Shown: piece after piece, positions 2,261 through 63,449 of the stretch
Position numbering within the stretch: position 1 is the first letter of the stretch
Layout: each line of letters starts with the position of its first letter
Source of the DNA: Chrysemys picta bellii
Lineage: Eukaryota
Reading direction: 5' to 3'
DNA length: 64,000 nt
Assembly: GCF_011386835.1 (NCBI RefSeq)
Contig: NC_088810.1
Span: 10,354,001 to 10,418,000, forward strand
Position numbers and translations under genes: made by a program
Notes under the pieces: generated by a model
Told to the model about the DNA's origin: nothing
Database searches by the model: none
Seen by the model: only the letters and a program-made list of their open reading frames with translations

Positions 2261-2926
2261 CTATGGCAGCATGCAGGTGATCTTCATGATGGTTTTGGAA
2301 TACTCATGGGAGGCTGGCTTGAACTCGTCCACCAGCGGCTGAAGCTCCCGAATCACTGTCTCCAGTTGGTCTCTCTCTATGCCGCCCAGGATCGCGCTGA
2401 AAATCAAGTCGACACCCACACCCAGGAGTGCACCAACAAATATGGCGCCGACAATGGAGGAACCGACCTTGACCACGAGCGTCATCATTTTGCTCATGAC
2501 GCTGGTCGTCACCTTCGATGACACCAGCTTGATTAGGATCCCCAACGCTAACCCAGTGAAGCCGCTCACCCCCTTGGCCCAATTGTGGAGAATCTGCATC
2601 TTCTTGGCATCAGGCTCCTGGAAATCGTGAAGCTTTCGGTAGAGATCTGGCTCCAGTTCGCTCTTCAACCTTGCATCGATGGCCTGCAGCGTGTCTTGGA
2701 TGGACTGTATGGCTGCGAGGAGTACGTCGCAGTTCTCCCGGACGGTGCCGTTCTTGTTCATCTTAATGGGGTGCAACTCGCAGTGACAGTGTGTGTTTAA
2801 GGCTTTAATCAGATCGTTGGTGGTATCAAAATTGAGCTCTATGCAGTTGATCAGGTCCTGGTGTAACCGCACCACCTCCTCCCGCCTCGCTGGGTTGCCA
2901 GGGTACAGGATATCGCTCCAGGACAT
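2261..2926 (-). CDS. SMCO3: SMCO3-like protein A (221 aa), single coding exon
   Basis: Intact ORF. MSWSDILYPGNPARREEVVRLHQ..LN.H...GTVRENCD...LEPDLYRKL matches the recalled SMCO3 pattern ([20 protein letters not shown]...GTIKENCD...LEPTLYRKL). Acceptor cctctcctggcAG at 2938-2939, 11 nt before ATG; AATAAA at 2128-2133 (-). A paralog, not necessarily the SMCO3 ortholog. Confidence 0.88.
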   Translation of the reverse strand: MSWSDILYPGNPARREEVVRLHQDLINCIELNFDTTNDLIKALNTHCHCELHPIKMNKNGTVRENCDVLLAAIQSIQDTLQAIDARLKSELEPDLYRKLHDFQEPDAKKMQILHNWAKGVSGFTGLALGILIKLVSSKVTTSVMSKMMTLVVKVGSSIVGAIFVGALLGVGVDLIFSAILGGIERDQLETVIRELQPLVDEFKPASHEYSKTIMKITCMLP

Positions 2927-4177
2927 TCTCGAGAGAGCTGCCAGGAGAGGAAGAGGAAGGAGGCGTTAGTAACCCTCCCCACTGCACACACACCCCCGTG
3001 CAAATCACAGACTTAGCCAGTGCAGAGACTCAGCTGCCATTAAAACAAAAAAGTCTCCAGGGCTCCGATCCCCAAAGGTCTTTAGGTGCCTAATTCCCGT
3101 CAGTCCGTGGGAGTTCTGCGCCTAAACACCTTGGAGGTTCTAGGGAGGAAGGACTCGGCCAGTGGGTCCCGCACCCCCGAAAGCGTCACACCCCAAACCA
3201 CGGGGTCTCGGGAGGAAAGTGCCGCGAGGACCCAGCCAGAGCCTCCAGCTGGGAGAGGGAGAATCCGCCCAGCAACCTCGGGGCTCTCAGCCCCGCTCCC
3301 CAACAGACCCTCAATGGCCAGAGATCCCCCTCGCCCCCGCAGTGCCCCAGCTACTGCCCCAGACACCCCCACTTCTCCCCCCACGTTACCTCCCCACATT
3401 CCCCCGATCTCTGTCCCAGCACCCACCCCCTGCACCCCAACACCTTCCAGCACCCCGAACCATCCACCCAGGAGCGCGGCAGCATCCCCCATCTACCCGG
3501 CCACCTCCTGCCCCAGCCGCGGAGCTGCCCAGTTCCCGGCAGTTGCATGACTTGCTCCCTCCCCCCTGCTGCCCGGGGGGCCCAGCTGTGGGGCAGAAGC
3601 TGCCGTTTCTGGCTGTCTGCAGATTAGCCCATGAAGTAATTTGCTCAAAACGCCAGGCCTGGAGCTGGTCGCAGCTGGGCAGCTTTGTTCTGGCTTCAAG
3701 GGGCACCTGGGGATAGTTTCATTTTTTGCCTCCTCCCCAGAGCTGGGCGCAGTCTCTAGTCAGGGTCTCCCGCTATCCGGAGGGGATCCCACCTCCCGGC
3801 TCCCACTCGCTATTCACCCGTTTCCCCAGCCCAGGGTCGCGCTCACCCGCTTGGCCACAGCATCCCCTGGGGCGCTCACGGGCAGCTGGTTCCACAGGAC
3901 ACCTGGGTCCTTCCCAGAGCTGCAGCTCGCCAGGGTCCCACTTTGGAAAGCAGAACTCCCTCCCCCGCATCGGTTACAGACAGGGCAGCTCCCCCCTCTC
4001 ACAGCGACCCCCCCCCAGTCTGTGGGTGACCGATGTTCTTTGTCCCTAGACATGGCACCTTGCCAGGGGCTGCATGAATCCCCTGTTGTTGGAGGAGCCC
4101 AGTTCGCCAAGCGATCCGGGGGCTCTCACTGCACGACCCCTGCTCCGATTCGTGTCTCCGCCGATGGGGCGAGTTAC

Positions 4178-4324
4178 CTGCTCGCTGGGCGGGGGGGAAG
4201 CCGAGGGGCCGTTCGCCTGGGCAGAGGTCAGCTCGGGTCCGCGGGCAGCAGCCTGGGCTCTCCGGAGAGGATCCCTTTGCTGTGACGCTCCCCGCACGCC
4301 GGAGCAGGGACTCTCGCCTTTATA
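4178..4324 (-). promoter_or_regulatory. TATA box and non-coding exon 1 of gene A
   Basis: TATAAA at 4319-4324 (-); donor CAG|GTAACT with the intron starting at 4177; both conserved in the mirror copy (51186, 51333). Confidence 0.7.
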
Positions 4325-4752
4325 GGAGGCTGGTCCTTGCTGTCACTTCCCAGTCAGCCGCCGAGATCCCATTGGCAGACCCGGAGCCAGCTGTGGTCAG
4401 GAGCGCGGTGCCAGTGGATGTCACATGGGCCTTCAAGTGGCTGCTTCGTGCCTGCGGCTTCCAGTTCCCCGCGTGGTTTCCAGGAACTCGAGTCTGGCTG
4501 GTTTCCAAGCCCCCGTTTGCGCCTCAGTCACGAGGGGCAGAAAGATCCAGGATCGAATCAATCCATGAGCCCGGCCGGGCCCCCGCTGCGAGCGCCTCCT
4601 GCTGGCAGTGCCCGGGGGAATTGCTACCCCGCCCTTTGGCTTGTGCCAACTTCCCCTTTCTCCCCTAACGGGAGCTTTATAAGGAGAGGCGGAGAGCCGG
4701 TGTCGTTCGCTCCTTCGCCCACCGGGACAGCAACCGCGCCGAGGAGCTACAG
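4325..4752. promoter_or_regulatory. Bidirectional promoter between genes A and B, plus non-coding exon 1 of gene B
   Basis: GAS consensus TTCCAGGAA at 4478-4486; ATTGG near 4372; TTTATAA at 4676-4682 (+); donor CAG|GTGAGA at 4753; CpG-rich. Confidence 0.6.
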
Positions 4753-6361
4753 GTGAGAGCCCCCGACCCCACCGATCGGGTCGGAATCGACGCGGGATAC
4801 GGCTCGGGGCTGAGTCCTTTCGCTTCGGCCTTTATACGCCACCAAACAGCCCTTTAAATCCCGTCCCCCGGGATACAGACCAGCTGCGCGCAGCCGGCGC
4901 ATTGCACCCTTAGCCACAAGAACCTGCTTCCAGCGGGGGGGGGGGGGGGGGGGGGACGGACGCAAACTTTTATGGCTGGGCCGGGCCCCCTTTGAAAATA
5001 GTTCAGGCTCTGACGACCCCACCACATGCCCCACAAGTGTTAGCAAATCACTGGGCAGAGAGGAGAACTGAGTGAAGCCTCTAATCGCCATCCCTGCATC
5101 AACGGCGCTGAAGCCCCAGTGGGCATCGCTGGCGCCCTCCACCCCGGTGCCTGCCTGCTCTCTTCGGCTGGGCTGGTAGGAGCCTGCATTGGCTTCAGCT
5201 CTGTCCTCGTCTCTCTGCCCGGGTGCAAACTCTCCTCCTACGGCCCTGCTTCGCACTTCCGCTGCTGAGCTGCAATACAATGAAACCTCGTCCTGCCCGA
5301 GCTGTGGGGTGCTGCTGCCCGTGCCCCTGTGCTGCTGCCGGCGGCGGCACTGCCCCCAGAGCTGGGCGGCTGGAGAGCTGAAACCCCTCCCCGGCAGAGT
5401 CCTCGAAATATGGTACCTCTAGAGCTCGTGATCCCCCTACAACAGCCTCGCACCCCCTTCTGGGGCCGGCCCCCTAGTTTCAGAAACACTGACTGGGGAG
5501 TTTCCGAAATGATCTTCTTCAGCGGGCACAGATCACTTCCACCCGGCGTCATCACTGATCCACACCCACGCATCCAGCTGCTGCCCCAGTCTTGGGGACC
5601 CTGGGGACCCTCTCCGGGTGCAGCCCTGCCGAGAGCTGGAACCCCCAGCCAGCCGCCGGCCCCCGGGGTGCAATGCAGCCCTTGAGGGTATGTCTGCACT
5701 GCAACTAAACCCCTGTGGCTGGCCTGCCGGGCTGCAGACTAGCAGTGTAGACGTGCAGGCTTGGACTGGAGCCCAGGTGGTGGGACTGTGCCTGGGGGGT
5801 TGGTCCCAGAGCCCGGGCTCCAGCCTGAACCCAGATGTCTGCATGGCAATTTTTAGCACCCCAGCCTGAGTCAGACCAGATGCCGCTGTTCCACGGGGCT
5901 TTTAGTCCAGTGTCGACGGACCTGAGACTCCCCCGTCACTTCGACACTCCCTGTCCCCGGACTCCACCCCAATGGCGCGCTGCCTCTGGTTCGCAGTGTC
6001 GCTCTCTTGGGGCCCGCAGTAGCTGCAAAGTGGGTAACGGACTGACGTGCTTTGCACACCCCATCTAGCACAGCAGTGCCCCTGTACCTCACCACCGCCA
6101 TTCTGGCTCTCCTCATTAGCCATATAAACGTCAGATCCCTTTCTGGGTCTTGCTAGACTCTCTGCATCAGCAAGATCATGAGGCCGTGAGTTCCACAGGT
6201 AACTCCCAGGGTTGTTGTGAAATAGCATTCCCTCTACTCCATTTCATAGGGGCTCCCTGTCGGTTCCATTGCACATCCCCTTGGCCTTGTGCTGGGGATC
6301 CTGGAGGGGAAACTCTTTAAGCTCCTCACCTGCGCTCTCTGCTTTGTTTCCCAGCCTCGTG

Positions 6362-7195
6362 ATGCTGTCCCTGTTCTCCGGCACAGAGAGCGAAAGAGAG
6401 AGGCTCGTGCGCGCCAGCCAGTCCCTGCTCAACTCCCTGGAAGGATGCATCTCAGGCACCCACGCTCTGCTCCGCATCCTCAACCAGCACCTTGACACCA
6501 GCGTGTCCCTGGAACCAGTGGGGGGCAGCGTCGGCGTGGGGGAGAACTTGGAGCGCCTGCTGCGGGCGGCGTGGGAGATACACGCCGCAGCAGAGCAGAC
6601 GGACAGACACGTGCGGAAGAACACCAGCCGGGACCTGTACGCCCGCATGGCCTCCCCCCACACCTCACTGCAGGAGAAGGGGGCCATCGTCCGGGACTTC
6701 CACCAGGCCACCATGGGGATCTTCGGCAGCGTGGGTGGCCCCATGGTGGCCGTGCTACTGCAGAACGCCGGCCTCCCGGAGCGGCTGGAGGCGGCTCTGC
6801 GGGAGTTGGAGGCCTCCCCGGTCCTGCACCTGCCGATGGACGCCCTGCGCCAGAGCAGCAAGGAGATCGCCAGGGCTGTGTCCGCTTGTGCCACCCCTGG
6901 GGGCCCAACTGTGGAAACGGCTGCAGAGCCCCCCGAGAATGGCCCCTTCTCTGGGACCGGCGTGGTGCAGAGTCTGGGCGAATACCTGCCCGATGTCCTC
7001 ACGGGGCGTCGTGCTAGGAACGCCCTGGCAGCGGCCGCTGGGCACCTGGAGGAGGCGCTTCGGGCACTGGCACCGGCCTGCAAGTCTTTCCAGTTGGCGG
7101 CTGCCGCGGCTGAGGTCTACATGGCCCTGATCACGGAGCAGCAGCCGGGAACGGGAGAGGGGCCGGGCCAGAATCCTGCCGGCGTCGCCCATTGA
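6362..7195 (+). CDS. Divergent SMCO3-family protein B (277 aa), single coding exon
   Basis: Intact ORF; acceptor tttgtttcccAG at 6353-6354, 7 nt before ATG; AATAAA at 7329-7334. ERERLVRASQSLLNSL..T..LLRILNQHL...GENL..LL.A..EI...TD......DLY aligns to the N-terminal helices of gene A. An intact paralog is at 45306-46139. Confidence 0.8.
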   Translation: MLSLFSGTESERERLVRASQSLLNSLEGCISGTHALLRILNQHLDTSVSLEPVGGSVGVGENLERLLRAAWEIHAAAEQTDRHVRKNTSRDLYARMASPHTSLQEKGAIVRDFHQATMGIFGSVGGPMVAVLLQNAGLPERLEAALRELEASPVLHLPMDALRQSSKEIARAVSACATPGGPTVETAAEPPENGPFSGTGVVQSLGEYLPDVLTGRRARNALAAAAGHLEEALRALAPACKSFQLAAAAAEVYMALITEQQPGTGEGPGQNPAGVAH

Positions 7196-10100
7196 TCCAT
7201 GCAGGCAGAGCCGTGACAGCGCCCCCTCACCACAGCTCACGCACGGGCAGGCTTTGCCCCGGGCTCTGCGCTGGTTAACGAGCCCGGCAGAGCCCAGCAT
7301 GTGGGGCTGGCAGCCGGGAACCGCAGCTAATAAAGGGAACTGAGCAAAACCCCAGGCCTGAGTCTTACTGGTTTGTCCCGGGTGGCGTGCTGGCCCAAGG
7401 GCCTTAGAACGAGACTCCCCACCCGGCCCCTGGGGAAAATCAGGAGTAACTTGGGGAGAGGGGGGAGCAATGGGGCCAATTCCCCTCTCTGATGTAAATC
7501 AGGAGTAACTCCATTGATGTCAAAGGGCCAATTCCCTTTCACTCTGGTGTAAATCAGGTGTAACTCGGTGGGGGGGAGGGATCAATAACCTGAACCACAA
7601 ACGAACTGGTTACGGTTATTTTTCCTGCAATTTTTTTGTGTGGGGGCGTTTGCTGAAAAAACAAAATAATAAAAAAATCCATTTTCAAAACCCTTTTCTG
7701 GTAAAAATAAAAACCCAGGTGGTGGTTTGGGTTGAAAGTTTGTGGTTTCGGTTTTTTAAAAACTTCCTTTAAAAAAAAAAAAAAAAAGAATTGAAAACCT
7801 GATTTTTCTTTGTTACTTCAAAACTGACACGTTGGTCCCAGCTTTGGTTCCAGGGTTTTCCCGGGTTTTGCAAACTGCCTCATTTCATGTGCAAACAGGG
7901 AGCCCAGATCCCCCGATATCAGGGGCTTTGTCTGGGAACCCCCAGACCGGGCAGGACGCGGGGTGGCCAGGGCTGGGTGTGAGTCAGAGCTCATTCCCCA
8001 GCGGGCTCTCAGGTCTGGGCGTTGACCCGGCCCGTGGTACTTTGGGCTGGGCTGGGCCAGAACCCACCCGCCCGCAGGGCCCCAGGGTGCAGCAGGGGGC
8101 TCCGGAGTCGCACTGCAGTGGAACCAGCAGCAGGGAACAGATGCTGGGGTCAGGGAGCCACAGGTCCGGTGCTCTGGGACAGTCGCTGGGGGGGCTGTAC
8201 AGGGGCCAGCCCCCCCTTAGGGTCTCACTCTGTCGCCAGGGGAAGCCACTTGGCTTCACCACCTCCTGGGACCCTACCTCGGTGCTTGCAGTCCCCTCCC
8301 TGCAGCGACTCCACCTGAGACGGACTTCTAAGGGAGACGTGTACCCCCAAAGGGGGCACTGCCCCCAGCATCTGCTGGGGCTCCCAGCCGGTGGGGGAAG
8401 GGCAGGCGGGTTTGTTAGGTGGCTGCACCCAGCATGGCCTGTCCTCAGTCAACCAGAGAGCCGGAAGCTACAGCCTGGTCCATGGGCAGCTCCGGGCCCC
8501 AGCCAAATATGTCCGACCTTGGCTCCCGCTCTTCCAGCTGGCTTCCTGCAAGGGGTGGGGGGGAGTCACCCTGGGCGTTAGTTGCTAGATCGGCAATGTC
8601 CCGGCAGGTTGGCTTTGCCATTGTCTTCATGGACTCGCCAGCGTCACGGGCCCCAAATCAAGACAGGCAGGATCAGCCGCCCCTGGGTGGTAGCTTGCCC
8701 TAGAGAAAACAGCCCTTTCCAGCCCACAGGGGCCAGCGTGGCACATAGGGGAAACTGAGGCACAGACAGTCTTCATACAAAATAATGCAGACACTTCCCA
8801 CTGCGCTACTCTGTGCAGGTGCAACCTGAGACTCACAGGAAACGCATGTGAGCAGAGCTCCCACGACTGCCAGCTGGCATGGACATAGCCACGGGACTCA
8901 GTAACTCCCCTGCCCCCATGTATCTTGGGTGTGGGGCAACACGCGCGCACACACACACACACAGAGCAGGGCTCATCCCCTCCAGCAGACACACATGCAC
9001 ACACACATACAGCACCTCTATGTCCAAGGGGTTCCTACGTGCATCAGATAAGCCCCCAACCCCCCCTCCCTCCCAGAGATTCCCTCATGTGACTGGGGTA
9101 TGTGCCCCAGCCTAAGTGGTGTCTAATGGTTAGAGCAGTGGGGGCTGGGAGCCAGGACACCTGGGTTCTGTCCTGGCTCTGGGAGGGGAGGGGAGTGGGG
9201 TCTAATGCTTAGAATACGGGACTGTGCACCAAGACTCACTGCAGCCGGAGGGTTTTTGGCAGTTCTGCCAGGGTCATTACACGTTTGCAGGCCCATCTTC
9301 CAGTCCCTGCCCGGCCCACTCGCCCTATCGGGTGGCAATGAGGAGGCACCGGGCACCTGATGGTTGGGGGAGAGGAGAGGGGAGGAGATCGGAGGCCCAG
9401 GATCAGGACCCAAGCCCAAGTTTCCACCTCTGGCTTGTTGGCTCTGGGCCAGGGCCCAGCCTCTCACCTACATTCCCTGCCATTCCCCTGCACTGGACCC
9501 ACAGCTTGAAGTCTTGGGATTCCCCAGCCTGGCCCCAGGTGCTCCGTACGCTGGCTGGAGTCACTCTGGGGTAAATCAGGAGTAAAGCCATGGGGACCGA
9601 TTCCTTTCGCCCTCACCTGGGGGTAAATCATTTCTGTAGTTCTTCTCAGAACCCTCCCCAATTGTCGAATGTCCTGTTTGACATGTGGCTCCCCCGCCCA
9701 CCCCAGAGCTGGGCGTGGTTTCCAGTCAGGGTCTCCCCCATGCTGTATCCAGAGGGGACCCCACCTCCCAGCTCCTACTCTCTAATCCCCTGCTTCTCCA
9801 GCCCAGGGCCGTGCTCCTCCTCTCACCCAGGGAGCTCTGGTCCAGTGGGTTCCACCAGGATCTCTGGGTCCTTCCCGCATTGCTGCCTTCCAGGGTGCAG
9901 CCCCCCACCATGTAACTCCTACCAATATCAGTTGTGTCCCTCTCTTAGCCAGTGTACTGGGCGCTCATGGTGGGTTGATTCTCCTTGAAAATCTACCGAT
10001 TTGTCCCATGTCACAAGAGGAGTCCGTGGTGGATTCGAACCCAGATCTCCAAATGGAGGCTGGCCATTATCAAAGAGTCTGTAGCACAAGTAGGGATATT

Positions 10101-14606: not shown

Positions 14607-15500
14607 CATAGAATCATAGAATATCAGGGTTGGAAGGGACCTCAGGAGGTCATCTAGTCCAACCCCCTGCTCAAAGCAGGACCAATTCCCAACTAAATCA
14701 TCCCAGCCAGGGCTTTGTCAAGCCGGGCCTTAAAAACCTCTAAGGAAGGAGATTCCACCACCTTCCTAGGGAACCCATTCCAGTGCTTCACCACCCTCCT
14801 AGTGAAATAGTGTTTCCTAATATCCAACCTAGACCTCCCCCACTGCAACTTGAGACCATTGCTCCTTGTTCTTTCATCTGGTACCACTGAGAACAGTCTA
14901 GATCCATCCTCTTTGGAACCCCCTTTCAGGTAGTTGAAAGCAGCTATCAAATCCCCCCTCATTCTTCTCTTCTGCAGACTAAACAATCCCAGTTCCCACA
15001 GCCTCTCCTCATAACTCATGTGTTCCAGCCCCCTAATCATTTTTGTTGCCCTCCGCTGGACTCTTTCCAAGTTTTCCACATCCTTCTTGTAGTGTGGGGC
15101 CCAAAACTGGACACAGTACTCCAGGTGAGGCCTCACCAATGTCGAATAGAGGGGAATGATCACGTCCCTCGATCTGCTGGCAATGCCCCTACTTATACAG
15201 CCCAAAATACCGTTAGCCTTCTTGGCAACAAGGGCACACTGTTGACTCATATCCAGCTTCTCGTCCACTGTAAGCCCTAGGTCCTTTTCTGCAGAACTGC
15301 TACCTAGCCATTCGGTCCCTAGTCTGTAACAGTGAATGAGATTCTTCCGTCCTCCCGACCTGCTCCATGATTTTTCAGGGACTGAGGTGAGGCTGACTGG
15401 CCTGTAGTTCCCTGGATCCTCCTTCTTCCCTTTTTTAAAGATGGGCACTACATTAGCCTTTTTCCAGTCATCCAGGACCTCCCCCGATCACCATGAGTTT
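14607..15500 (-). mobile_element. CR1 LINE 3' part with the RT core deleted
   Basis: [21 protein letters not shown] joined directly to [10 protein letters not shown]...LDKALAGMI; ATTCTATG tail at 14607-14622; a further CR1 scrap at ~15500-15720. Confidence 0.92.
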
Positions 15501-27526: not shown

Positions 27527-28771
27527 TTACTGGGGGCTTTCAGCCTCAAATTGCTCCCTCAAGGCACCCCTAATCCTTGCAGCCCCGCGCTGGGCCCCTG
27601 TAATAGCCCTGCTCTCTGCCTGTTCAAATTCAGCCTCCAGGTGTTGAACCTCCGAAGTCCATGCCTGAGTGAAGCTTTCACCCTTCCCTTCACAAATATT
27701 ATGGAGGGTACAGCACGCGGATATAACCATGGGGATGTTGTCATCGGCCAGGTCCAGCTTCCCATTCAGAGAGCACCAGCGGCCCTTTAAACGGCCAAAG
27801 GCACACTCCACAGTCATTCAGCACCGGCTCAGCCTGTTGAACCGCTCCTTGCTGCTGTCAAGGCTCCCTATGCAGGGTTTCATGAGCCACAGCATTAAAG
27901 GGTAAGCGGGGTCTCCCAGGATCACAATGGGCATTTCGACTTCCCCTACAGTGATCTTCCGCTCTGGGAAAAAAGTCCCGGCCTGCAGCTTCCTGAACAG
28001 CCAAGTGTTCCGAAAGATGCGTGAGTCATGCACCTTTCCAGACCAGCCTGCGTCAATGTCAATGAAATGCCCACGATGATCTACAAGCGCCTGGAGAACC
28101 ATAGAGAAATACCCCTTCCGATTAACGTACTCAGATCCTAGGTGGGGTGGTGCCAGAATAGGAATGTGAGTCCCATCTATCGGTCCTCCGCAGTTAGGGA
28201 ACCCCATTTGTGCAAAGCCAGCCACAATGTCCTGCACGTTGCCCAGAGTCACGGTTCTTCTGAGCAGGATGCGATTAATGGCCCTGCAAACTTGCATCAA
28301 CACGATTCCAACGGTCGACTTTCCCACTCCAAACTGGTTAGCGACCGACCGGTAGCTGTCTGGAGTTGCCAGCTTCCAGATTGCAATAGCCACCTGCTTC
28401 TCCACCGTCAGGGCAGCTCTCAATCTCATGTCCTTGCACCGCAGGGGGGGGTGAGCTCCTCACACAGTCCTATGAATGTGGCTTTCCTCATCCAAAAGTT
28501 CTGCAGCTACAGCGTGTCATCCCAGACTTGCAGGACAATGTGATCCCACCACTCAGTGTTTCTTTCCTGAGCCCAAAAGCGGCGTTCCACGGTGGTGAGT
28601 ATGTCCGTGAATGCCACAATGCCATGAATGCCACGTGTCGTATGCATTACTCGAGTCGATATCATCGTCGGAGTCCTCACTGTCCGTTTGGATCGTAAGG
28701 AGTAACTCCACTGCCAAACGCGAGATGCTGGTGAAACTCGTTAGCATATTCCTCAGCAGTTCGGGCTCCAT
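27527..28771 (-). pseudogene. Harbinger (HARBI1-like) DDE transposase, frameshifted
   Basis: IDGTHIP, GDPAYPL and VECAFGRLKGRW motifs split over several frames. Confidence 0.9.
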
Positions 28772-40217: not shown

Positions 40218-40960
40218 CTAAACATCAGGCAACAACGGGGAGGATCGGGGGGAGCATGTGGCCATGGGTACCCATCTTGCTCTGTCAATCTGTTTCCTCA
40301 CTTCCCCAGGTGGGTATTGTAGTTTTACGAATGCTTGATAAAGATCTTGTAGGTGTTTGTCTCTGTCTGAGGGGTAGGAGCAAATTCGGTTGTATCTTAG
40401 GGCTTGGCTGTAGACAATGGATCGTATGATGTGTCTTGGATGGAAGCTGGAAGCATGTAGGTACGTATAGCGGTCAGTAGGTTTCCGGTATAGGGTGGTG
40501 TTTATGTGACCATCACTTATTTGCACTGTAGTGTCCAGGAAGTGGATCTCTTGTGTGGACTGGTCCAGGCTGAGGTTGATGGTGGGGTGGAAATTGTTGA
40601 AGTCCAGGAGGAATTCTTCAAGGGCCTCCTTTCCGTGGGTCCATATGATGAAGATGTCATCAATGTAGCGCAAGTAGAGGAGGGGCACTAGGGGACGAGA
40701 GCTGAGGAAGCGTTGTTCTAAGTCAGCCATAAAAATGTTGGCATATTGTGGGGCCATGCGGGTACCCATAGCAGTGCCACTGACTTGAAGGTATAAGTTG
40801 TCCCCAAATCTGAAGTGGTTGTGGGTGAGGACAAAGTCACAAAGCTCAGCCACCAGGCTTGCTGTGGCCTCATCAGGGATACTGTTCCTGACAGCTTGTA
40901 GTCCATCCTCATGTGGAATATTGGTGTAAAGTGCTTCTACATCCATGGTGGCCAGGCAGG
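40218..40960 (-). mobile_element. Penelope-like retrotransposon RT fragment
   Basis: MDVEALYTNIPH, GTAMGTRMAPQYANIFM, YLRYIDDIF, LYRKPTD motifs; open frame; truncated at both ends. Confidence 0.92.
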
Positions 40961-41764
40961 TACCGCATTCACAGAGCCAAATGTGCCGTCGCGGCGCATT
41001 CTGCATGAGGGAGAGAGTACGGGGGTCTCTGCGGGGAACTGTGACTCTCCACCACCGTGAGGCAGGCTGGGAGTCTGGGTATCCTTTGCTGCCTCATCCC
41101 TCCCCACCAGGCTGCGAGCCCGGGCTGTGGTCGGGCATAGGGGCACCAGTTTAATAATACTGTGTAGGGCCCCAGAAATCCTAAGGATGGCCCTGGCACT
41201 GCCCATGAACATAAGTCGATAACATCCCTACTTGTGCTACAGACTCTTTGATAATGGCCAGCCTCATGTTTAGAGATCCAGGAGATCTGGGTTTGAATCC
41301 ACCAGGACTCCTCTTGTGACCTGGGACAAATCATTAGATTTTCAAGGAGAATCAACCCACCATGAGCGCCCAGCGCACTGGCTAAGAGGGGTACACAATT
41401 CATGTGGGTAGGAGTTACATTGTGGGGGGCTGTACCCTGGAAAGCAGCAATTTGCGAAGGACCCAGAGATCCTGGTGGAACCCACTGCGTTGGAGCTCCC
41501 AGGGTGAGAGGGCGAGTACGGCCCTGGGAGGGAGAAGCAGGAGATTAGAGAGTAGGAGCTGGGAGGTAGGGTCCCCTCTGGATACAGCATGTGGGGGACC
41601 GTGACTGGAGACTGCGCCCAGCTCTGGGCGGGACCCACACATCAAACAGGACAGTGGACAATTGGGGAGGGTTCTGAGAAGAGCTACAGAAATGATTTAC
41701 CCCCAGGTGAGGGAGAGGGGAATCGGCCCCCGTGGCATAGGGACTGGGAGTGGCTGGCTTATTA

Positions 41765-45305: not shown

Positions 45306-46139
45306 TCAATGGGCAACCCCGGCAGGATTCTGGCCCGGCCCCTCTCCCGTTCCCGGCTGCTGCTCCGTGATCAGGGCCATGTAGACCTCAGCCGCGGCAG
45401 CCGCCAACTGGAAAGACTTGCAGGCCGGTGCCAGTGCCCGAAGTGCCTCCTCCAGGTGCCCAGCGGCCGCTGCCAGGGCGTTCCTAGCACAACACCCCGT
45501 GAGGACATCGAGCAGGTATTTGCCCAGACTCTGCACCATGCTGGTCCCAGAGAAAGGGCTATTCTCGGGGTGCCCTGCAGCCGTTTCCAAAGTTGGGCCC
45601 CCGCAGGTGTCATGAGCAGACACAGCCTTGGCAATATCCTCGCTGCTCCGGCGCAGGGTGTCCATTGGCAGGCGCAGCACCGGGGAGTCCTCCAACCCCC
45701 GCAGAGCCGCCTCCAGCCGCTCCGGGAGGCCGGCGTTCTGCAGCAGCACGGCTGCCATGGGGCCACCCACACTGCCGAAGATCCCCATGGTGGCCTGGTG
45801 GAAGTCCCGGACGATGGCCCCCTTCTCCTGCAGTGAGGTGTGGGGCGAGGCCATGCGGGCGTACAGGTCCCGGCTGGTGTTCTTCCGCACGTGTCTGTCT
45901 GTCTGCTCTGCTGCGGCGTGCATCTCCCACACCGCCTGCAGCAGGCACTCCAAGTTCTCCCCCACGCCGACGCTGCCCCCCACTGGTTCCAGGGACACGC
46001 TGGTGTCAAGGTGCTGGTTGAGCATGCGTAGCAGAGCGTGGGTGGCCGAGATGCATCCTTCCAGGGAGTCGTGCAGGGACTGGCTGGCGCGCACGAGCCT
46101 CTCTCTTTCACTCTCTGTGCCAGAGAACAGGGAGAGCAT
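45306..46139 (-). CDS. Divergent SMCO3-family protein B' (277 aa), paralog of 6362-7195
   Basis: Intact ORF of the same length as B; ~30 aa differences (~89% identity); acceptor AG at 46147-46148; AATAAA at 45167-45172 (-). Confidence 0.78.
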   Translation of the reverse strand: MLSLFSGTESERERLVRASQSLHDSLEGCISATHALLRMLNQHLDTSVSLEPVGGSVGVGENLECLLQAVWEMHAAAEQTDRHVRKNTSRDLYARMASPHTSLQEKGAIVRDFHQATMGIFGSVGGPMAAVLLQNAGLPERLEAALRGLEDSPVLRLPMDTLRRSSEDIAKAVSAHDTCGGPTLETAAGHPENSPFSGTSMVQSLGKYLLDVLTGCCARNALAAAAGHLEEALRALAPACKSFQLAAAAAEVYMALITEQQPGTGEGPGQNPAGVAH

Positions 46140-47179: not shown

Positions 47180-49255
47180 CGTGGTGTCAGAGAGAAGGCT
47201 TTGGATTCTTTGACCATGGGATGGTGTTCCAAGAGGGAGGAGTGCTAGGCAGAGACAGGCTCCACTTAACGAAGAGAGGGAAGAGCATCTTCGCAAGCAG
47301 GCTGGCTAACCTAGTGAGGAGGGCTTTAAACTAGGTTCAACGGGGGAAGGAGACCAAAGTGGGGAAGTGGGATACTGGGAGGAAGCACGAGCAGGAGAGT
47401 GCAAGAGGGGAGGACTCCTGCCTCATACTGAGAAAGCAGGATGATCAGTGAGTTATCTTGAGTGCCTATACAGAAATGCAAGAAGCCTGGGAAACAAGCA
47501 GGGAGAACTGGAAGTCCTGGCACAGTCAGGGAACTATGATGTGATTGGAATAACAGAGACCTGGTGAGATAACTCACATGACTGGAGTACTGTCATGGAT
47601 GGATATAAACTGTTCAGGAAGGACAGGCAGGGCAGAAAAGGTGGGGGAGTTGCGTTGTATGTAAGAGAGGAGTATGACTGCTCAGAGCTCCGGTATGAAA
47701 CTGCAGAAAAACCTGAGAGTCTCTGGATAAAGTTGAGAAGTGTGAGCAACAAGGGTGATGTCGTGGTTGGAGTCTGCTATAGACCACCAGACCAGGGGGA
47801 TGAGGTGGACGAGGCTTTCTTCTGGCAACTAGCAGAAGTTGCTAGATCGCAGGCCCTGGTTCTCATGGGGGACTTCAATCACCCCAATATCTGCTGGGAG
47901 AGCAATACAGCGGTGCACAGACAATCCAGGAAGTTTTTGGAAAGTGTAGGGGACAATTTCCTGGTGCAAGTGCTGGAGGAACCAACTAGGGGCAGAGCTT
48001 TTCTTGACCTGCTGCTCACAAACAGGGAAGAATTAGTAGGGGAAGCAAAAGTGGATGGGAACCTGGGAGGCAGTGACCATGAGATCGTCGAGTTCAGGAT
48101 CCTGACAGGATCCTGTAGTGCCCATCTTTAAAAAAGGGAAGAAGGAGGATCCGGGGAACTACAGGCTGGTCAGCCTCACCTCCGTCCCTGGAAAAATCAT
48201 GGAGCAGGTCCTCAAGGAATCAATTCTGAAGCACTTAAAGGAGAGGAAAGTGATCAGGAACAGTCAGCATGGATTCACCAAGGGCAAGTCATGCCTGACT
48301 AACCTAATTGCCTTCTATGACCAGATAACTGGCTCCACGGATGAGGGGAAAGCAGTGGATGTGTTATTCCTTGACTTTTGCACTAAACTGGGAGGAGTGG
48401 TAGATATGCTGGAGGGTAGGGCTAGGATACAGAGGGACCTAGACAAATTAGAGGATTGGGCCAAAAGAAATCTGATGAGGTTCAACAAGGACAAGTGCAG
48501 AGTCCTGCACTTAGGGTGGAAGAATTCCATGCACTGCTACAGACTAGGGACCGAATGGCTAAGTAGCAGTTCTGCAGAAAAGGACAGAGGGGTTACCGTG
48601 GTCGAGAAGCTGGATATGAGTCAACAGTGTCCCCTTGTTGCCAAGAAGGCTAATGGCATTTTGGGCTGTATAAGTAGGGGCATTGCCAGCAGATCGAGGA
48701 ACGTGATCATTCCCCTCTATTCGACATTGGTGAGGCCTCATCTGGAGTACTGTGTCCAGTTTTGGGCCACACACTACAAGAAGGATGTGGAAAAATTGGA
48801 AAGAGTCCAGCGGAGGGCAACAAAAATGATTAGGGGTCTGGAGCACATGACTTATGAGGAGAGGCTGAGGGAACTGGGATTGTTTAGTCTGCAGAAGAGA
48901 AGAATGAGGGGGGATTTGATAGCAGCCTTCAATTACCTGAAGGGGGGTTCCAAAGAGGATGGAGCTCGGCTGTTCTCAGTGGTGGCAGATGACAGAACAA
49001 GGAGCAATGGTCTCAAGTTGCAGTGGGGGAGGTCTAGGCTGGATATTAGGAAAAACTTTTTCACTAGTAGGGTGGTGAAGCACTGGAATGGGTTCCCTAG
49101 GGAGGTGGGGGAATCTCCTTCCTTGGAGGTTTTTAAGGTCAGGCTTGACAAAGCCCTGGCTGGGATGATTTAGTTGGGAATTGGTCCTGCTTTGAGCAGA
49201 GGGTTGGACTAGATGACTCCTGAGGTCCCTTCCAACCCTGATATTCTATGATTCT
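47180..49255 (+). mobile_element. CR1 LINE (end of ORF1, endonuclease, RT pieces, 3' UTR) with two internal deletions, in the presumed intron of B'
   Basis: EN motifs ([20 protein letters not shown]); jump at ~48105 to PIFKKG; FLDF joined to TKLGG at ~48378 removes the FADD core; ATTCTATG tail. Confidence 0.93.
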
Positions 49256-51737: not shown

Positions 51738-52430
51738 ATGGCCTGGAGCGATATCCTGTACCCTGGCAACTCAGCAAGGCGGGAGAGGGTGGTGCGGTTA
51801 CACCAGGAGCTGATCAACTGCATAGAGCTCAATTTTGATGCCACCAACGAGCTGATTGGAGCCTTAAACACACACTGTCAGTTCAAGTTGCACCCCATTA
51901 AGATGAACATGAACGGCACCGTCCGGGAGAACTGTGACATATTCCTCGCAGCCATGAAGTCCATCCAAGACACGCTGCAGGCCATCGACGGAAGGTTGAA
52001 AAGCCAACTGGAGCCAGACCTCTACCAAAAACTTCATGATTTCCAGGAGCCTGATGCCAAGAAGATGCAGATTCTGCGCTCTCTGGCCAAGGGGGTGAGC
52101 GAGTTCACTGGGACCATGGCCATGAAGTTTTTCATCAAGCTGGTTTTATCGAAGGTGATGAGCAAAGCTATGAGCCAAATTACCATGATCTTGGCCGAGA
52201 TCGGTGCCTCCGTGGTTGGCGCCGTGGCTGGCATGATACTGGGCGTGGGTGTCGACTTGATTCTCAGCGCGATCCTGGGCGCCATAGAGAGAGACCGACT
52301 GGAGACAGCGATTCGGAAGCTCGAGGCGCTGGTGAGCGAGTTCAAGCCAGCCTCCAAGGAGTATAACAAAACCATCCTGAAGACCATCTACACGCTGCCA
52401 TCGCCGGAGGAGAATCAGCCGTTCAGATGA
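51738..52430 (+). CDS. SMCO3: SMCO3-like protein A' (230 aa)
   Basis: Intact ORF, paralog of 2261-2926; ATTAAA at 52517 and AATAAA at 52531. Confidence 0.88.
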   Translation: MAWSDILYPGNSARRERVVRLHQELINCIELNFDATNELIGALNTHCQFKLHPIKMNMNGTVRENCDIFLAAMKSIQDTLQAIDGRLKSQLEPDLYQKLHDFQEPDAKKMQILRSLAKGVSEFTGTMAMKFFIKLVLSKVMSKAMSQITMILAEIGASVVGAVAGMILGVGVDLILSAILGAIERDRLETAIRKLEALVSEFKPASKEYNKTILKTIYTLPSPEENQPFR

Positions 52431-57567: not shown

Positions 57568-59609
57568 GAGTTGAGCTAGAGCGGAGCTCAAAGTACAGTA
57601 ACTTCCCCAACCTTTGCTAGGGCCTGTCAGGTGTTTAAATGCAGGGCCTCTGATCTGAATCCGAGACTAGATAGGAGCGGGGATTCCAGAACGATGGTGA
57701 GCTGAGACGTTCCGGCCTAGGGAACCAGTTGGAAAATGTTACTGTGCAAAAGGGCATAAACCCATTCTAGAGCAGGGGGTCTCTAACTTTTTCTGGCTGA
57801 GCCCCACTTTGAAAATATTTCAGGCTGTGACAACCCCACTCCCACCCCCACAAATTGACAGCAAATCACTGGACATACTAGTCAGAGAAGACTAAATGAA
57901 GCATGTCGGCATTATCCCTGCAGTCAATGGCACTGAAGCCCCCAGTGGCTTCCCTACGCTGCCCAGGCCAGAGATCAGCTCACTCTGCCGCATCTGTCTG
58001 GGCCTCGCTGGCGCACTCCACCCCGGTGCCTAGCTGGTCACGACCTGGGCTGGCAGGAGCCTGCATTGGCTTCAGCTCTGTCCTCGTCTCTCTCTGGCCT
58101 GGCTGTAAACTGTCCTCCTACATCCCCACTGCTGCTGAGCTGTAATGAAAGTGAAACCTCGTCCTGTCCGAGGTGTATGGCACTGCCGCCCTTGCTCCTG
58201 CGCGGCTCCGGGAACTGGCAATGCCTTCAGTGCTGGGCGGCCGGAGAGCTGTATCCCTCTCTCCCTGGCAGTGTCCTTGAAATATGGTACTAGATCTCGC
58301 AACCCCCCTACGATAGCCTCGCCACCCCCTTTTGGGGCGTGACCAATGTTCCCTCTAATTTTTTACGTCCATGTGCAGAATAAATTGTATTATGTGCCCC
58401 AATATGGAGGTGATCTGTGGCAGGAGTGGGGCCGAGGGGTTTGGAGTGTGAGATGGGGCTCAGGGCTGGGGCAGAGGGTTGGAGTGCAGGGGGTGAGGGC
58501 TCTGGCTGGGGGTGCAGGCTCTGGGGTGGGGCCAGGGATGAGGGGTTTGGGTTGCAGGAATTTAGCTCGGGAGCCCAAGGTTGAGAAACGCTGTTTTAGA
58601 GAATAAACAGAAATCGCATCCCCGCTAGGGAACGGGGAGGGAATTGCCACGAAAGGTTCCTATTGGCCATTCCATTCTACAGGTGGATTTACTAGGAATC
58701 ATTTCTGTGAAACTCTTCTCATCACCTCCGACCCCTGGGGTTTGAACCAGGCAATCTGTGACCCAGCAAAACCTGGGGCAGCCCAATCAGTCCAGAATTG
58801 CTGTAGGTTCCCAAGGCCCCAACATTTTTGGAAAAAATTGTCCCAGTCTCAAGTTGGACTGAAAAGTCGAAACTCTCCAATGTTTCCATGAGCCGAACTT
58901 TTTCTTCAGTTCCAATCCCTCAAACCGTTTCCTTTCAATCGTTTAGAAATGTCTCATCTCAAGTTTGGACCTTTGCCCCCTCGACGTGTGAATTGGCTCA
59001 AATTTCTAACCAAAAAGTTGTTTTAACTGGAGAAAAAAATGAAGCTTTGGAGTTCAACAATATCCAACCCTGTTAACAAATGTTGGGAGTCGGGTGTTTC
59101 CAAGTTTTGGTTTCTACTTTTTTTGGTGGAAAGCTCCCTGTTTTGTTGCAAACTTCCCACGCAGCTCTGCCCCAAGGGTAACATTTACTAGCCAGGTTTT
59201 TAGTTTTTAAGGGCCTGGCTGGCTTTTGTTATGTGGTTACCAAAGGTTAGAGGTGCTGTTTACCGAGTGATTTCTTCTTCAACAAAGTGTTTTATTATCA
59301 GCTCTTTCATATGTCCTTGTAATATCCTGGTGCAGAAGAGAACCACCAGCCACACAGAGCAACTTGTTCATACTGGGCAATTTTCATCCACAGCTCTCAA
59401 AGATCCCACTCCCCTCCCAGATCTGGGGAGAGAACTCAGGAGTCCTGGCTCCCAGCCCCTCCCCACACCATTCTAATCCATGGGATCCCACTCCCCGCCC
59501 AGAGCGTGGGCTAGAATCCAGGAGTCCGGACTCTCAACACCCTCCTGCACAGGGCCAACTCCAGGGTTTTTGCCGCTCCAAGCAACAAACAAAGGTCAGC
59601 TCCCAGATT

Positions 59610-61247
59610 GCTGCACTGGGCAGTACAGCATGGGGAGAAGGTGACCAGCCCTCTGTGGAGAAAGAAGTGGTTTGGCACTATTTAGAAAAACTGGACGTGC
59701 ACAAGTCCATGGGGCCGGATGCGCTGCATCCGAGGGTGCTAAAGGAGTTGGCGGGTGAGATTGCAGAGCCATTAGCCATTATTTTTGAAAACTCCTGGCG
59801 ATCGGGGGAGGTCCCAGATGACTGGAAAAAGGCTAATGTAGTGCCCATCTTTAAAAAAGGGAAGAAGGAGGATCCGGGGAACTACAGGCCAGTCAGCCTC
59901 ACCTCAGTCCCTGGAAAAATCATGGAGCAAGTCCTCAAGGAATCAATTATGAAACATTTAGAGGAGAGGAAAGTGATCAGGAACAGTCAGCATGGATTCA
60001 TGAAGGGGAAGTCGTGCCTGACTAACCTAATTGCCTTCTATGATGAGATAACTGGCTCTGTGGATGAGGGGAAAGCAGTGGATGTGTTATTCCTTGACTT
60101 TAGCAAAGCTTTTGATACGGTCTCCCACAGTATTCTTGCCGCCAAGTTAAAGAAGTATGGGCTGGATGAATGGACTGTAAGGTGGATAGAAAGCTGGCTA
60201 GATCGTCGGGCTCAACGGGTAGTGATCAATGGCTCCATGTCTAGTTGGCAGCCAGTTTCAAGCAGAGTGCCCCAAGGGTTGGTCCTGGGGCCGGTTTTGT
60301 TTAATATCTTTATTAATGATCTGGAGGATGGTGTGGACTGCACTCTCAGCAAGTTTGCAGATGACACTAAACTAGGAGGCGTGGTAGATACACTAGAGGG
60401 TAGGGATCGGATACAGAGGGACCTAGACAAATTAGAGGATTGGGCCGAAAAAAACCTGATGAGGTCCAACAAGGACAAGTGCAGAGTCCTGCACTTAGGA
60501 CAGAAGAATCCCATGCACTGCTACAGACTAGGGACCGAATGGCTAGGTAGCAGTTCTGCAGAAAAGGACCTAGGGGTTACAGTGGACGAGAAGCTGGATA
60601 TGAGTCAACAGTGTGCTCTTGTTGCCAAGAAGGCTAACGGCATTTTGGGCTGTATAAGTAGGGGCATTGCCAGCAGATCAAGGAATGTGATAGTTCTCCT
60701 TTATTCGACATTGGTGAGGCCTCATCTGGAATACTGTGTCCAGTTTTGGTCCCCACACTACAAAAAGGATGTGGAAAAATTGGAAAGAGTCCAGCAGAGG
60801 GCAACAAAAATGATTAGGGGTCTGGAGCACATGACTTATGAGGAGAGGCTGAGGGAACTGGGATTGTTTAGTCTGCAGAAGAGAAGAATGAGGGGGGATT
60901 TGATAGCAGACTTCAACTACCTGAAGGGGGGTTCCAAAGAGGATGGAGCTCAGCTGTTCTCAGTGGTGGCAGATGACAGAACAAGGATCAATGGTCTCAA
61001 GTTTCAGTGGGGGAGGTCCAGGTTGGATATCAGGAAAAACTATTTCAGTAGGAGGGTGGTGAAACACTGGAATGCGTTACCTAGGGAGGTGGTGGAGTCT
61101 CCTTCCTTGGAGGTTTTTAAGGCCCGGCTTGACAAGGCCCTGGCTGGGATGATTTAGCTGGGAATTGGTCCTGCTTTGAGCAGGGGGTTGGACTAGATGA
61201 CCTCTTGAGGTCCCTTCCAACCCTGATATTCTATGATTCTATGATTC
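59610..61247 (+). mobile_element. 5'-truncated CR1 LINE with an uninterrupted RT frame (to 61157)
   Basis: [16 protein letters not shown]...[11 protein letters not shown]...FADDTKLGG...LDKALAGMI; (ATTCTATG)n tail. Confidence 0.95.
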
Positions 61248-62230
61248 AAACAAACAAAAAAAGCCACGATCGCGATCAGCTCTACCGCTGCTGCTTTAGT
61301 CTTTGTCGGCAATTTGGCGGCAGGTCCTTGGCTCTGAGAGGGAGTGAGGGACTCGCTGTCGAATTGCTGCCGAAGAACCGGACGTGCCGCCCCTGTCCTT
61401 TGGCTGCCCCAAGCACCTGCTTGCTGGGCTGGTGCCTGGAGCCGGCCCTGCTCCTGCACTAGATGTCAGATGAAATAAAAGAAATTGGGGTGTGATGAAG
61501 CCAAAGGCCCTCCTGCTTTTCAATTCACATTGCCCCGAGGCATAGGCAGTGCAGCCAGGATGAGGAGTTGGCTGGCATGGGGTGTGGCTGGCCCTCCAGG
61601 GCATGCCCACAATTGCCTGGAGAATGGAGAAGATGGGTGAGGCAGAGAGCACGGGGCAGGGATGAATGGAGCAGGAAGCACAGGGCAGGGGGGGATTCTG
61701 GAAGTGGGGCGGGTTGAGGAACCCTGGCAGCAGGGGAGATGGGCGAGGATCACAGGACAGGGAGCACAGGGTGGGGAGAGCAATGCTGGCAGTGGGGGAA
61801 ACAGGCAGGGGATCTGGCAGCAGGGGGGGCTGGCAGGGTGGAGAGAATAGGTGAGGGGTGGGGGGGATCCCAGCAGCAGGGGAGCACAGGCCGGTGAGGA
61901 TGGGCCAGGGACCTTTGGGGGAGGGAGGCGGGAGTGCAGGCCGGGGAGAACAGGGGGAAGCCCAGGCTGTGGTGGGAGAATGGGGGGGAAAGCAGGTTGT
62001 GGGAAGAGAATGAGGGGGATCGGGGTGGGGGAGGAGCACATGACCATGGACAGGCCCCACATCACTTCAGAAGTCCAGGTCCCAGGGCCCCGTCAGCTCC
62101 CATCTGCCCCATGGCTCCTCATCTGCCCCCAGCTCTGCACCCCGTGCCCCCAGCTCTCCCTGGGGCTCCTGCTGTTCTGGCAGCTCCCCCCATCGGCCTC
62201 ACCCGGGGTCACCACATGCCTGCGCTCCTC

Positions 62231-62704
62231 CTAGGAGAGCGGCTGCCCGTCCCGCTGCTGGTTCCGCAGGTGCCAGTCCTTGCCGATGCCCAGCTTGGGC
62301 AGGCCGCGGTCGAGTCCCTCCAGCAGGACGCAGGCCTTGCACAGGGGCTGGCTGGCCACGTAGCCGCAGCGCTGGCAGGTGCCGCGGGCTGGCATGCGGA
62401 GGTCGGAGCGCAGCGAGAGCCGCTCGCCCGAGTGGCCCAGGTCAGCCACGGCGCTGGGCCGGGCGGCCTCCAGCTCCTTGAGCAGGGCGCAGGCGTAGCC
62501 GCGGTAGGCGTAGACACACTCGGTGCTGAAGTAGTCCAGGCCCTGGAAGTAGGCATAGGGGACAATCTCCTGGTAGGCGTGGCACAGGGACTTGCAACAG
62601 GGCACCCCCCGCCTGCCCTGTTCCCGCCCCCTGGCACAGCCAGCCCATGTCGCCCTGCAGGAAGTTCATCGGCACCGTCTTGGCCACGTCGTCCGCGTTG
62701 TGCC
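62231..62704 (-). pseudogene. CTU1: CTU1 (cytoplasmic tRNA 2-thiolation protein 1) last coding exon, frameshifted
   Basis: Acceptor ctgcAG then GHNADDVAKTV..NFL.GD; frameshift in the G-run near 62605-62612; then [24 protein letters not shown]...[18 protein letters not shown]. Confidence 0.8.
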
Positions 62705-63129
62705 CTGCAGGGAAGAGCGGAGGAGTCAGGCCAAAGTGGTACAGAGCCCTCCACAGCAGATCTCCTGGGGTCCCTTCCTCCCTGCAATAACCCCCAAATC
62801 AGACCCGAGGGTGTCCCCCCTGCCTCCATCCCACAGCACCCCTCGCACACACCTGGGGAGTTCTTGTCCATGCTGAACAGCAACCCGCAGCTGAGGCCCC
62901 TCCCACCTGCCTCCTGGGGCGATCCTGACATCACCCCGGCCCACACAGTCCCGCGCCACATGCTCTCCAGTACCAGTGTGGCCATCTTGCCCATGCCCAG
63001 CAGCAGGACGGCTCCCAAACCCCACCTGAGATCCAACAGCTGCAGGATGAAGCCCGACAAATCCAGAATGGAAATAAGGGGCAGATTTTCCCCAGTAAGG
63101 GCAATTGAGTCTTTCAAATCAAATTCAAA

Positions 63130-63449
63130 TTCATGGAGATATCCTATCTCCTAGAGCTGGAAGGGACCTTGAAAGGTCATCAAGTCCAGGATTGGGGACT
63201 TCAACAGCAGAGTCCAGGGAAGGGGTAGGGACGGTTTTATGGCCTGCAGCATGCAGGGGGTCAGACCAGATGATCATAATGGTCCCTTCTGACCTTAAAG
63301 TCTATGAGTCTAAGTCCAGCCCCCTGCCTTCACTAGCAGGACCGAGTACTGATTTTGGCCCAGATCCCTAAGTGGCCCCCTCAAGGATTGAACTCACAAC
63401 CCTGGGTTTAGCAGGCCAATGCTCAAACCACTGAGCTATCCCTTCCCCC
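63130..63449 (-). mobile_element. tRNA-derived SINE (interrupted)
   Basis: Reverse strand gggatagctcagtggtttgagcattggcctgctaaacccaggg... Confidence 0.85.

What the first reader, a model, noticed from the sequence alone, without database searches (positions are those of the whole stretch)
6770..7020. Gene B replaces the membrane segment of A with a polar Pro/Gly/acidic stretch
A has SSIVGAIFVGALLGVGVDLIFSAILGG just before its last helix. The positionally equivalent part of B is SACATPGGPTVETAAEPPENGPFSGTGVVQSLGEYLPDVLTG. B keeps only one short hydrophobic run (MGIFGSVGGPMVAVLL) and is ~55 aa longer. Inference: B is a soluble or peripheral paralog (decoy, chaperone, immunity factor or second subunit).
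Basis: partly seen in the sequence, partly recalled or inferred. Interest (0 to 1): 0.7.

Follow-up and report, generated by a model that had tools for sequence, protein, structure and literature searches.

The report
Soluble twin of variable membrane protein
In this turtle genome, gene B is an ancient relative of its back-to-back neighbour A that has lost A's water-repelling segment and is copied together with A almost unchanged, while that segment of A differs strongly between copies, so B is likely a soluble, general-purpose partner that keeps a predicted membrane-inserting defence protein in check.

Summary
B (6362-7195, +) is a C12orf60-type gene and A an SMCO3-type gene; both are Pfam DUF4533. 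B does lack A's hydrophobic segment, but the Pro/Gly stretch does not replace it. A156-179 aligns to B151-173, a helix made polar in place; the Pro/Gly stretch is a later 40-residue insertion, absent from 6 of 6 fish-clade B proteins and predicted disordered. The A/B split predates the fish-amniote divergence. New here: the pair duplicates as a head-to-head unit (6 intact pairs), both types are transcribed in related turtles, B's polar helix region is under purifying selection (omega 0.13), and A's hairpin is an island of 17-28% DNA difference in units otherwise about 4% apart, with variants shared across turtle families. Best reading: A is a diversifying membrane-inserting protein and B a generic soluble partner; function and binding are inferred. 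No fold match; bacterial relatives are A-type and solitary. The scan noted the same gene pair before in a lizard (e1-8630451).

The parts
2261..2926 (-). Gene A coding exon, SMCO3-type, 221 aa
   Evidence: (PF15047, 78.7 bits)
2387..2590 (-). A113-180 hydrophobic hairpin region; island of divergence between copies
2390..2461 (-). A156-179, the most hydrophobic, Gly-rich helix
2938..4177 (-). Intron of A (GT-AG on the minus strand)
   Evidence: joint 2937-4178 in 3 of 4 contig runs; ends read
4178..4752 (.). Overlapping non-coding first exons of A and B; likely shared two-way promoter, TATA-like words near 4324 (-) and 4678 (+)
   Evidence: promoter function inferred
4753..6354 (+). Intron of B (GT-AG)
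   Evidence: joint in 3 of 4 contig runs; ends read
6362..7195 (+). Gene B coding exon, C12orf60-type, 277 aa
   Evidence: (PF15047, 73.4 bits)
6707..6760 (+). B116-133, residual hydrophobic helix, counterpart of the first half of A's hairpin
6812..6880 (+). B151-173, counterpart of A's main hydrophobic helix, polar and amphipathic, conserved
6881..7000 (+). B174-213, 40-residue insertion: Pro/Gly loop (pLDDT under 50 at 181-197) plus a short amphipathic helix
7329..7349 (+). AATAAA signal and poly(A) site of B-type transcripts
   Evidence: sequence; poly(A) loose ends at 7349 in 2 of 3 raw RNA runs
45306..46139 (-). B', second copy, 89% identical to B
51738..52430 (+). A', second copy, 71% identical to A

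Best explanation
B shares A's family and predicted helical layout but has a polar, conserved helix where A has a variable hydrophobic hairpin, and it likely works as a soluble, co-expressed partner that binds A through the conserved bundle and keeps A from inserting into membranes until triggered. Steps: (1) shown: an ancestral hairpin-bearing gene duplicated before ray-finned fish and amniotes split, and the B copy had its hairpin made polar in place; amniote B later gained a loop. (2) shown: A and B lie head to head with overlapping first exons and duplicate as one unit. (3) shown: within the turtle units nearly everything is homogenised except A's hairpin, which keeps old divergent variants. 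(4) inferred: A is made in the cytosol (no N-terminal hydrophobic leader) and inserts its Gly-rich, only marginally hydrophobic hairpin conditionally into a target membrane, the hairpin setting specificity, as in a defence role. (5) inferred: B is a one-size-fits-all chaperone or restraint; its Pro/Gly loop is a dispensable spacer.
For: Homology and register. Parallel helix order in the two models (A: H11-47, 62-90, 93-99, 106-119, 125-136, 138-156, 159-167, 174-219; B: H6-44, 59-85, 90-97, 103-116, 125-136, 140-148, 153-177 in pieces, loop, 201-260). B-types form one clade, 29 rows, SH-aLRT 100, quick tree. 6 of 6 intact A genes have a divergent intact B within about 10 kb; the one A without B has ACG for ATG, and the one promoter-bearing B without an A coding exon is frameshifted. 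Splice joints for both genes in contigs guessed to be RNA, not listed for the probable DNA run; stranded 3' reads for both types in 3 of 3 raw RNA runs of related turtles. B110-173 omega about 0.13, p 4e-8 against 1; B insertion omega about 2, p 0.2. A hairpin mismatches 56 of 198, 48 of 201 and 34 of 201 against 3.6-4.9% in non-coding DNA, Fisher p 1e-25 to 2e-9. Hairpin data reject a clade of the two snapping-turtle copies (AU p 0.009) and an emydid clade (p 0.009); the N-terminal data reject grouping A with the snapping-turtle copy (p 0.015). A's best 19-mer sums to +1.2 kcal/mol on the biological scale, B's to +6.0.
Against: No functional data were found for either gene. Bacterial relatives are A-type only: no B-type hit among 307 ORFs of 33 loci, so A can exist without B. 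Omega of the A hairpin (1.1) is not significantly above 1 (p 0.3); both synonymous and non-synonymous differences are raised, which gene conversion that merely skips an already divergent block could also give. The ancestral SMCO3 hairpin is conserved (46 of 67 identical to a mammal-type hit, 41 of 67 to frog), so variability is special to the turtle cluster. Joint duplication may follow from the overlapping promoter alone. Two intact B frames lie without A (though also without the promoter in the 10 kb fetched). RNA reads come from related species and cannot be assigned to these copies or to the same cells. Copy numbers are small.
Confidence: 0.4

Rival explanations
1. B is an independent soluble protein; it travels with A only because their first exons and promoter overlap, and A works alone.
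For: Solitary A-type genes in bacteria; overlap of 5' exons forces joint duplication; the earlier lizard report e1-8630451 reached a similar view (unchecked note).
Against: Linkage is kept at both the chromosome-1-type locus and the turtle cluster; in the two promoter-bearing units that lost a partner the remaining gene is broken; B's former hairpin region is its most constrained part.
Confidence: 0.25
2. A and B are two required subunits of one membrane-inserting oligomer, as in two-part alpha-helical pore formers, A supplying the membrane helices and B a scaffold or peripheral subunit (via B113-139 and B201-214).
For: Same family with unequal hydrophobicity, joint duplication; B keeps a 27-residue uncharged run and amphipathic helices; some bacterial A-types carry extra C-terminal domains, and one lineage lies between an Rhs gene and PRTase-CE, NADAR and baseplate-like genes.
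Against: Bacterial A-types have no B partner; profile comparison with a 4-sequence XaxA-family alignment is at background level (probability 4-6%); no signal peptide-like leader.
Confidence: 0.2
3. B is a matched antidote or decoy that recognises the hairpin of its own neighbouring A.
For: Pairing and the loss pattern resemble toxin-antidote units.
Against: B copies differ by only 1-4% of bases per region, and dN 0.007-0.033 among six of seven copies, while neighbouring A hairpins differ by 17-28%: no matching variation.
Confidence: 0.08
4. B is still an integral membrane protein, using B113-139 as its single membrane helix.
For: 27 uncharged residues; KD 1.6 or more in 7 of 15 turtle B hits; the sturgeon B scores +2.8 on the biological scale, near A-types.
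Against: KD 1.41 and +6.0 kcal/mol in B, with a Gly-Gly-Pro break; only 4 of 58 C12orf60 hits reach 1.6 anywhere.
Confidence: 0.07

Closest known systems
C12orf60 / Pfam DUF4533 (PF15047)
   Same: B scores above the Pfam cut-off, its hits are named C12orf60-like, and it falls in one clade with the genome's own C12orf60 orthologue, which lies beside an ART-family gene. The polar helix and the insertion are shared by amniote C12orf60 proteins.
   Different: B is a turtle paralogue at a second, expanded locus, about 38% identical to the orthologue. The family has no described function in the papers searched.
SMCO3
   Same: A's hits carry this name; same hydrophobic region; A groups with the genome's own SMCO3 (SH-aLRT 99); same opposite-strand pairing with a C12orf60-type gene (human arrangement recalled, same-locus listing seen in a passage of PMC7844411).
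   Different: The hydrophobic region is about 60 residues, more a hairpin than one pass; in the turtle cluster it varies strongly between copies while the orthologue's is conserved.
Two-part alpha-helical pore formers (XaxAB/YaxAB, ClyA family)
   Same: Analogy only (recalled): related helical subunits of unequal hydrophobicity encoded side by side, with a Gly-rich hairpin.
   Different: No sequence or profile support; animal, cytosolic-looking proteins of 220-280 aa; bacterial relatives of A are single genes.
Apolipoprotein L family; bacterial dynamin-like helical domains (LeoBC)
   Same: Helical proteins with a membrane hairpin; weak recurring hints to LeoBC-type helical regions.
   Different: Profile tests gave a 22-column match to ApoL (score 35, reversed control 24) and none to LeoBC (score 15, reversed control 33): not supported.

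Membership tests
DUF4533 (PF15047) | Score above the gathering cut-off of 28.6 bits | tested here: met
   A 78.7, B 73.4 bits
C12orf60-type (B) clade | Groups with C12orf60 orthologues to the exclusion of SMCO3-types | tested here: met
   29-row clade, SH-aLRT 100; amniote subclade 97; quick tree, the careful search did not finish
C12orf60-type (B) clade | Polar S-P-V-L..L.V.DLL-type helix in place of the SMCO3 hydrophobic helix | tested here: met
   B151-173; 22 amniote and 6 fish-clade rows
C12orf60 one-to-one orthologue | Lies at the conserved locus beside the ART-family gene | tested here: not met
   That place is held by G000:C1:88519215; the window is on C20. B is a paralogue. The WBP11 search rang nowhere.
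Integral membrane protein like SMCO3 | A 19-residue segment hydrophobic enough to span the membrane at the position of A156-179 | tested here: not met
   KD mean 0.48 in 22 amniote B rows against 2.00 in 26 A rows; 4.4 against 1.0 charges
Integral membrane protein like SMCO3 | Membrane localisation by experiment or dedicated predictor | not testable with these tools
   No DeepTMHMM-type tool; hydropathy scales only
XaxAB/ClyA-type two-part pore former | Sequence or profile homology to the family | tested here: not met
   hhalign probability 3.9% (A) and 6.1% (B) against a shallow 4-sequence alignment; no Pfam hit for A or B
XaxAB/ClyA-type two-part pore former | Shared fold | tested here: inconclusive
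   No clear match; a missing match does not exclude a family
XaxAB/ClyA-type two-part pore former | Pore formation needing both subunits | not testable with these tools
   Needs a liposome or cell assay
Bacterial dynamin-like helical domain (LeoBC, PF18709, PF21808) | Profile homology over the stalk and paddle | tested here: inconclusive
   Best 11 bits against one LeoBC protein among 109 frames; hhalign below its reversed control, on only 4 sequences; the PF21808 search found no members to compare

The most novel reading that the evidence does not exclude
SMCO3 and C12orf60 are an unrecognised vertebrate defence module: a cytosolic membrane-attacking protein with bacterial relatives (A) and its dedicated soluble inhibitor or chaperone (B), which arose by making the attacker's own hairpin polar. 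In turtles the module is amplified as a cassette in which only the hairpin keeps old variants shared across families, as recognition sites of immune genes do.
Probability: 0.25. Interest if true: 0.85.

Novelty: new variant of a known kind. Interest (0 to 1): 0.52.

Why it matters
Both genes have human counterparts of unknown function. Reading them as a hairpin-bearing protein and its polar twin, inherited as a unit since early bony vertebrates, gives a direct test (express A with and without B). The turtle cluster points to the hairpin as the variable, probably specificity-setting part and to B151-173 as a constrained surface, and supplies natural variants for comparison. The observation as first stated (a Pro/Gly stretch replacing the membrane segment) is the least important part: that loop looks dispensable.

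Tried and rejected
Complex prediction of A with B1-262: no answer (score 0.00 twice, alignments not used, partner fold uncertain); no evidence either way. Fold searches: no Foldseek match at E 0.001 for B or A in PDB or for A among viral models; VIA-align best Z 8.3 for B and 10.3 for A, to designed helical bundles and She2p, within the range expected for helical bundles; no ClyA-family chain among the 50 rows listed. PDB sequence searches gave nothing credible. Atlas: B not held, homologue P0003 gave no usable hit; A gave its own cluster, two unnamed largely bacterial clusters (0.94, 0.90) and DLP_helical at 0.87, a lead only. PADLOC and NCBIfam gave no credible hit for A or B. Links to LeoBC, ApoL and XaxA were tested and not supported. 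Positive selection by omega above 1 in the A hairpin or C-terminal helix: not significant; site models were not available. The run search listed no holder on record as RNA. WBP11 synteny search rang nowhere. PF21808 found in 0 of 251 genomes. PMC9893644 was listed with the SMCO3 term but no passage was found in its main text; its supplements were not read and may bear on a fish expansion. The careful tree did not finish. Models could not be superposed because coordinates are not returned.

Full report
Setting. The window is G000:C20:10354001-10418000 of a 2.37-Gb genome; named homologues point to a turtle close to Chrysemys picta. It holds two gene pairs in an inverted duplication: A 2261-2926 (-) with B 6362-7195 (+), and B' 45306-46139 (-) with A' 51738-52430 (+). 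A and B both pass the cut-off of Pfam DUF4533. A's hits are named SMCO3-like and B's C12orf60-like.

The observation. The quoted stretches are there, and B is 56 residues longer. B lacks a strong hydrophobic segment: best 19-residue hydropathy 1.41 against 2.41 in A; 37 of 41 A-type hits reach 2.0, against 0 of 15 turtle B-type and 1 of 58 C12orf60 hits. The positional claim does not hold. A156-179 aligns to B151-173, and B174-213 is an insertion of 40 residues; insertions are 9-60 residues in the 22 amniote rows and 0 in the 6 fish-clade rows (sturgeon, barb, three bowfin, one with no species shown). The A profile aligns to the fish B profile through this region with only small gaps, and turtle B to fish B with one 39-residue gap. 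Three of four MAFFT modes give the same register; the fast mode shifts it. Against a sharp boundary: the deep A-B profile alignment pairs A172-179 with B206-213, and a shallower one spreads A's helix across the insertion. The model of B (mean pLDDT 82.5) shows helices on both sides and pLDDT under 50 at 181-197; the helix order parallels the model of A (mean pLDDT 83.1, low at 164-176).

History. In a quick 65-row tree all 29 B-types form one clade (SH-aLRT 100), so the polar version predates the split of ray-finned fish and amniotes; the window's A groups with the genome's own SMCO3 (99) and its B with amniote C12orf60 (97). The ancestral pair lies on C1, divergent, 5.6 kb from an ART-family exon; that ART4 neighbours the human pair is recalled, and a table passage of PMC7844411 lists SMCO3, C12orf60, ERP27 and MGP at one locus (passages only). 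A-type relatives occur far outside vertebrates: unnamed eukaryote-assembly proteins, a fern, and bacteria. Among 307 ORFs of 33 bacterial loci only A-type genes were found; five genomes held one copy each.

The unit. The genome has 18 DUF4533 matches, 7 A-type and 11 B-type. Six intact divergent pairs exist. The 4151-4800 segment recurs in 7 units of the expanded type: 5 intact pairs, one with an A that starts ACG and no B, one with a frameshifted B and no A coding exon. Four further B copies (two intact, two broken) lack that segment and an A coding exon in the roughly 10 kb fetched. Contigs guessed to be RNA join 4752 to 6355 (GT-AG) in 3 of 4 runs and 2937 to 4178 in 3 of 4, and the first exons overlap; these joints are not listed for the probable DNA run. 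Three raw oligo-dT or cDNA runs of related turtles show opposite-strand 3' coverage on A and on B, with poly(A) at 7349 in two; reads were accepted from 90% likeness, so they show A- and B-type genes, not these copies. No upstream in-frame start is added by B's first exon, and neither protein starts with a hydrophobic leader.

Unequal evolution. Among 7 B copies omega is about 0.22 in 2-109 (p 2e-6), 0.13 in 110-173 (p 4e-8), 2.0 in the insertion (p 0.2) and 0.49 in the C-terminus (p 0.13); among 6 A copies it is 0.78, 1.1 (113-180) and 1.6, none different from 1. CpG mutability and gene conversion may bias these values. Across three whole units, A's hairpin differs at 56 of 198, 48 of 201 and 34 of 201 bases, against 3.6-4.9% of non-coding bases (p 1e-25 to 2e-9), and B coding regions differ by about 1-4%. 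Hairpin variants cross family lines: A's hairpin groups with a snapping-turtle copy and another with a big-headed-turtle copy. With 26 rows (three duplicates left out), the hairpin rejects a clade of the two snapping-turtle copies and an emydid clade (AU p 0.009 each), while the N-terminal part rejects A plus snapping turtle (p 0.015) and accepts the emydid clade (p 0.63); the test for the second variant was not significant (p 0.10). The ancestral SMCO3 hairpin is by contrast conserved (46 of 67 and 41 of 67 identical to distant orthologue-type hits).

Mechanism. Shown: homology, polarisation in place, later insertion, joint duplication, a constrained B helix region and a divergent A hairpin. 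Inferred: A is a cytosolic protein that inserts a Gly-rich, marginally hydrophobic hairpin (+1.2 kcal/mol for its best 19-mer, against +6.0 for B) into a target membrane, and B is a generic soluble partner that holds it in check (0.40). Rivals: independent B carried along by the shared promoter (0.25), second subunit of a pore (0.20), matched antidote (0.08; B does not vary with A), membrane-integral B (0.07). Weak context for a conflict role: one bacterial lineage lies between an Rhs gene and PRTase-CE, NADAR and baseplate-like genes, another locus is near a SIR2-TPR gene, and some bacterial members carry extra C-terminal domains; most neighbourhoods are unrelated to each other.

Comparison with what is known. 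B is a member of DUF4533 and of the C12orf60 clade, as a paralogue. Membership in ClyA/XaxAB-type pore formers, ApoL or dynamin-like helical domains was tested by profiles and not supported. Six literature searches (listings and abstract starts, at most 40 shown each) found no functional study; none held both 'SMCO3' and 'pore-forming'. A passage of PMC5800059 lists an SMCO3-like transcript as female-biased in mussel gonads. Supplements were not read.

Verdict. A real feature, misplaced in detail, of an ancient and uncharacterised gene pair. The interest lies in the cassette behaviour and the hairpin-restricted divergence, not in the Pro/Gly loop.

Noticed in passing
window 2387-2590: A's hairpin is a 200-base island of 17-28% difference between otherwise about 96% identical units, with variants shared across turtle families.
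   Followed up: yes
window 4178-4752: Overlapping first exons of A and B with back-to-back TATA-like words; the segment recurs in 7 units of the genome.
   Followed up: partly
P0178, P0182, P0219, P0220: Unnamed relatives with a weakened or polar hairpin that fall outside the vertebrate B clade in the quick tree: the hairpin may have been lost more than once.
   Followed up: partly
P0120 (Labeo rohita gene model): A single gene model joins an A-type body to a B-type C-terminal half, suggesting same-strand adjacency in carp or a mis-joined model.
   Followed up: no
P0155 (Adiantum): A fern protein with two tandem A-type domains.
   Followed up: no
L088, L089, L090, L092: A bacterial A-type gene between an Rhs gene (seen in 3 of the 4 loci) and PRTase-CE, NADAR and baseplate-like genes.
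   Followed up: partly
L099-L102, L106, P0246: Bacterial A-type proteins with extra C-terminal domains of 90-130 residues; no Pfam hit for the four scanned.
   Followed up: partly
window 14693-15448, 48106-49173, 59271-61157: Reverse-transcriptase-like frames, by recall CR1 LINE fragments; several are near-identical repeats.
   Followed up: no
window 27818-28459 (-) and 40218-41093 (-): Frames that by recall resemble a Harbinger-type transposase and a Penelope-type reverse transcriptase.
   Followed up: no
window 61900-63150: Long GC-rich open frames on both strands; may overlap an exon of another gene.
   Followed up: no
G000:C11:52000-620000 and C1: 21 apolipoprotein L family matches, most clustered on C11: a second expanded membrane-active family in this genome.
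   Followed up: no
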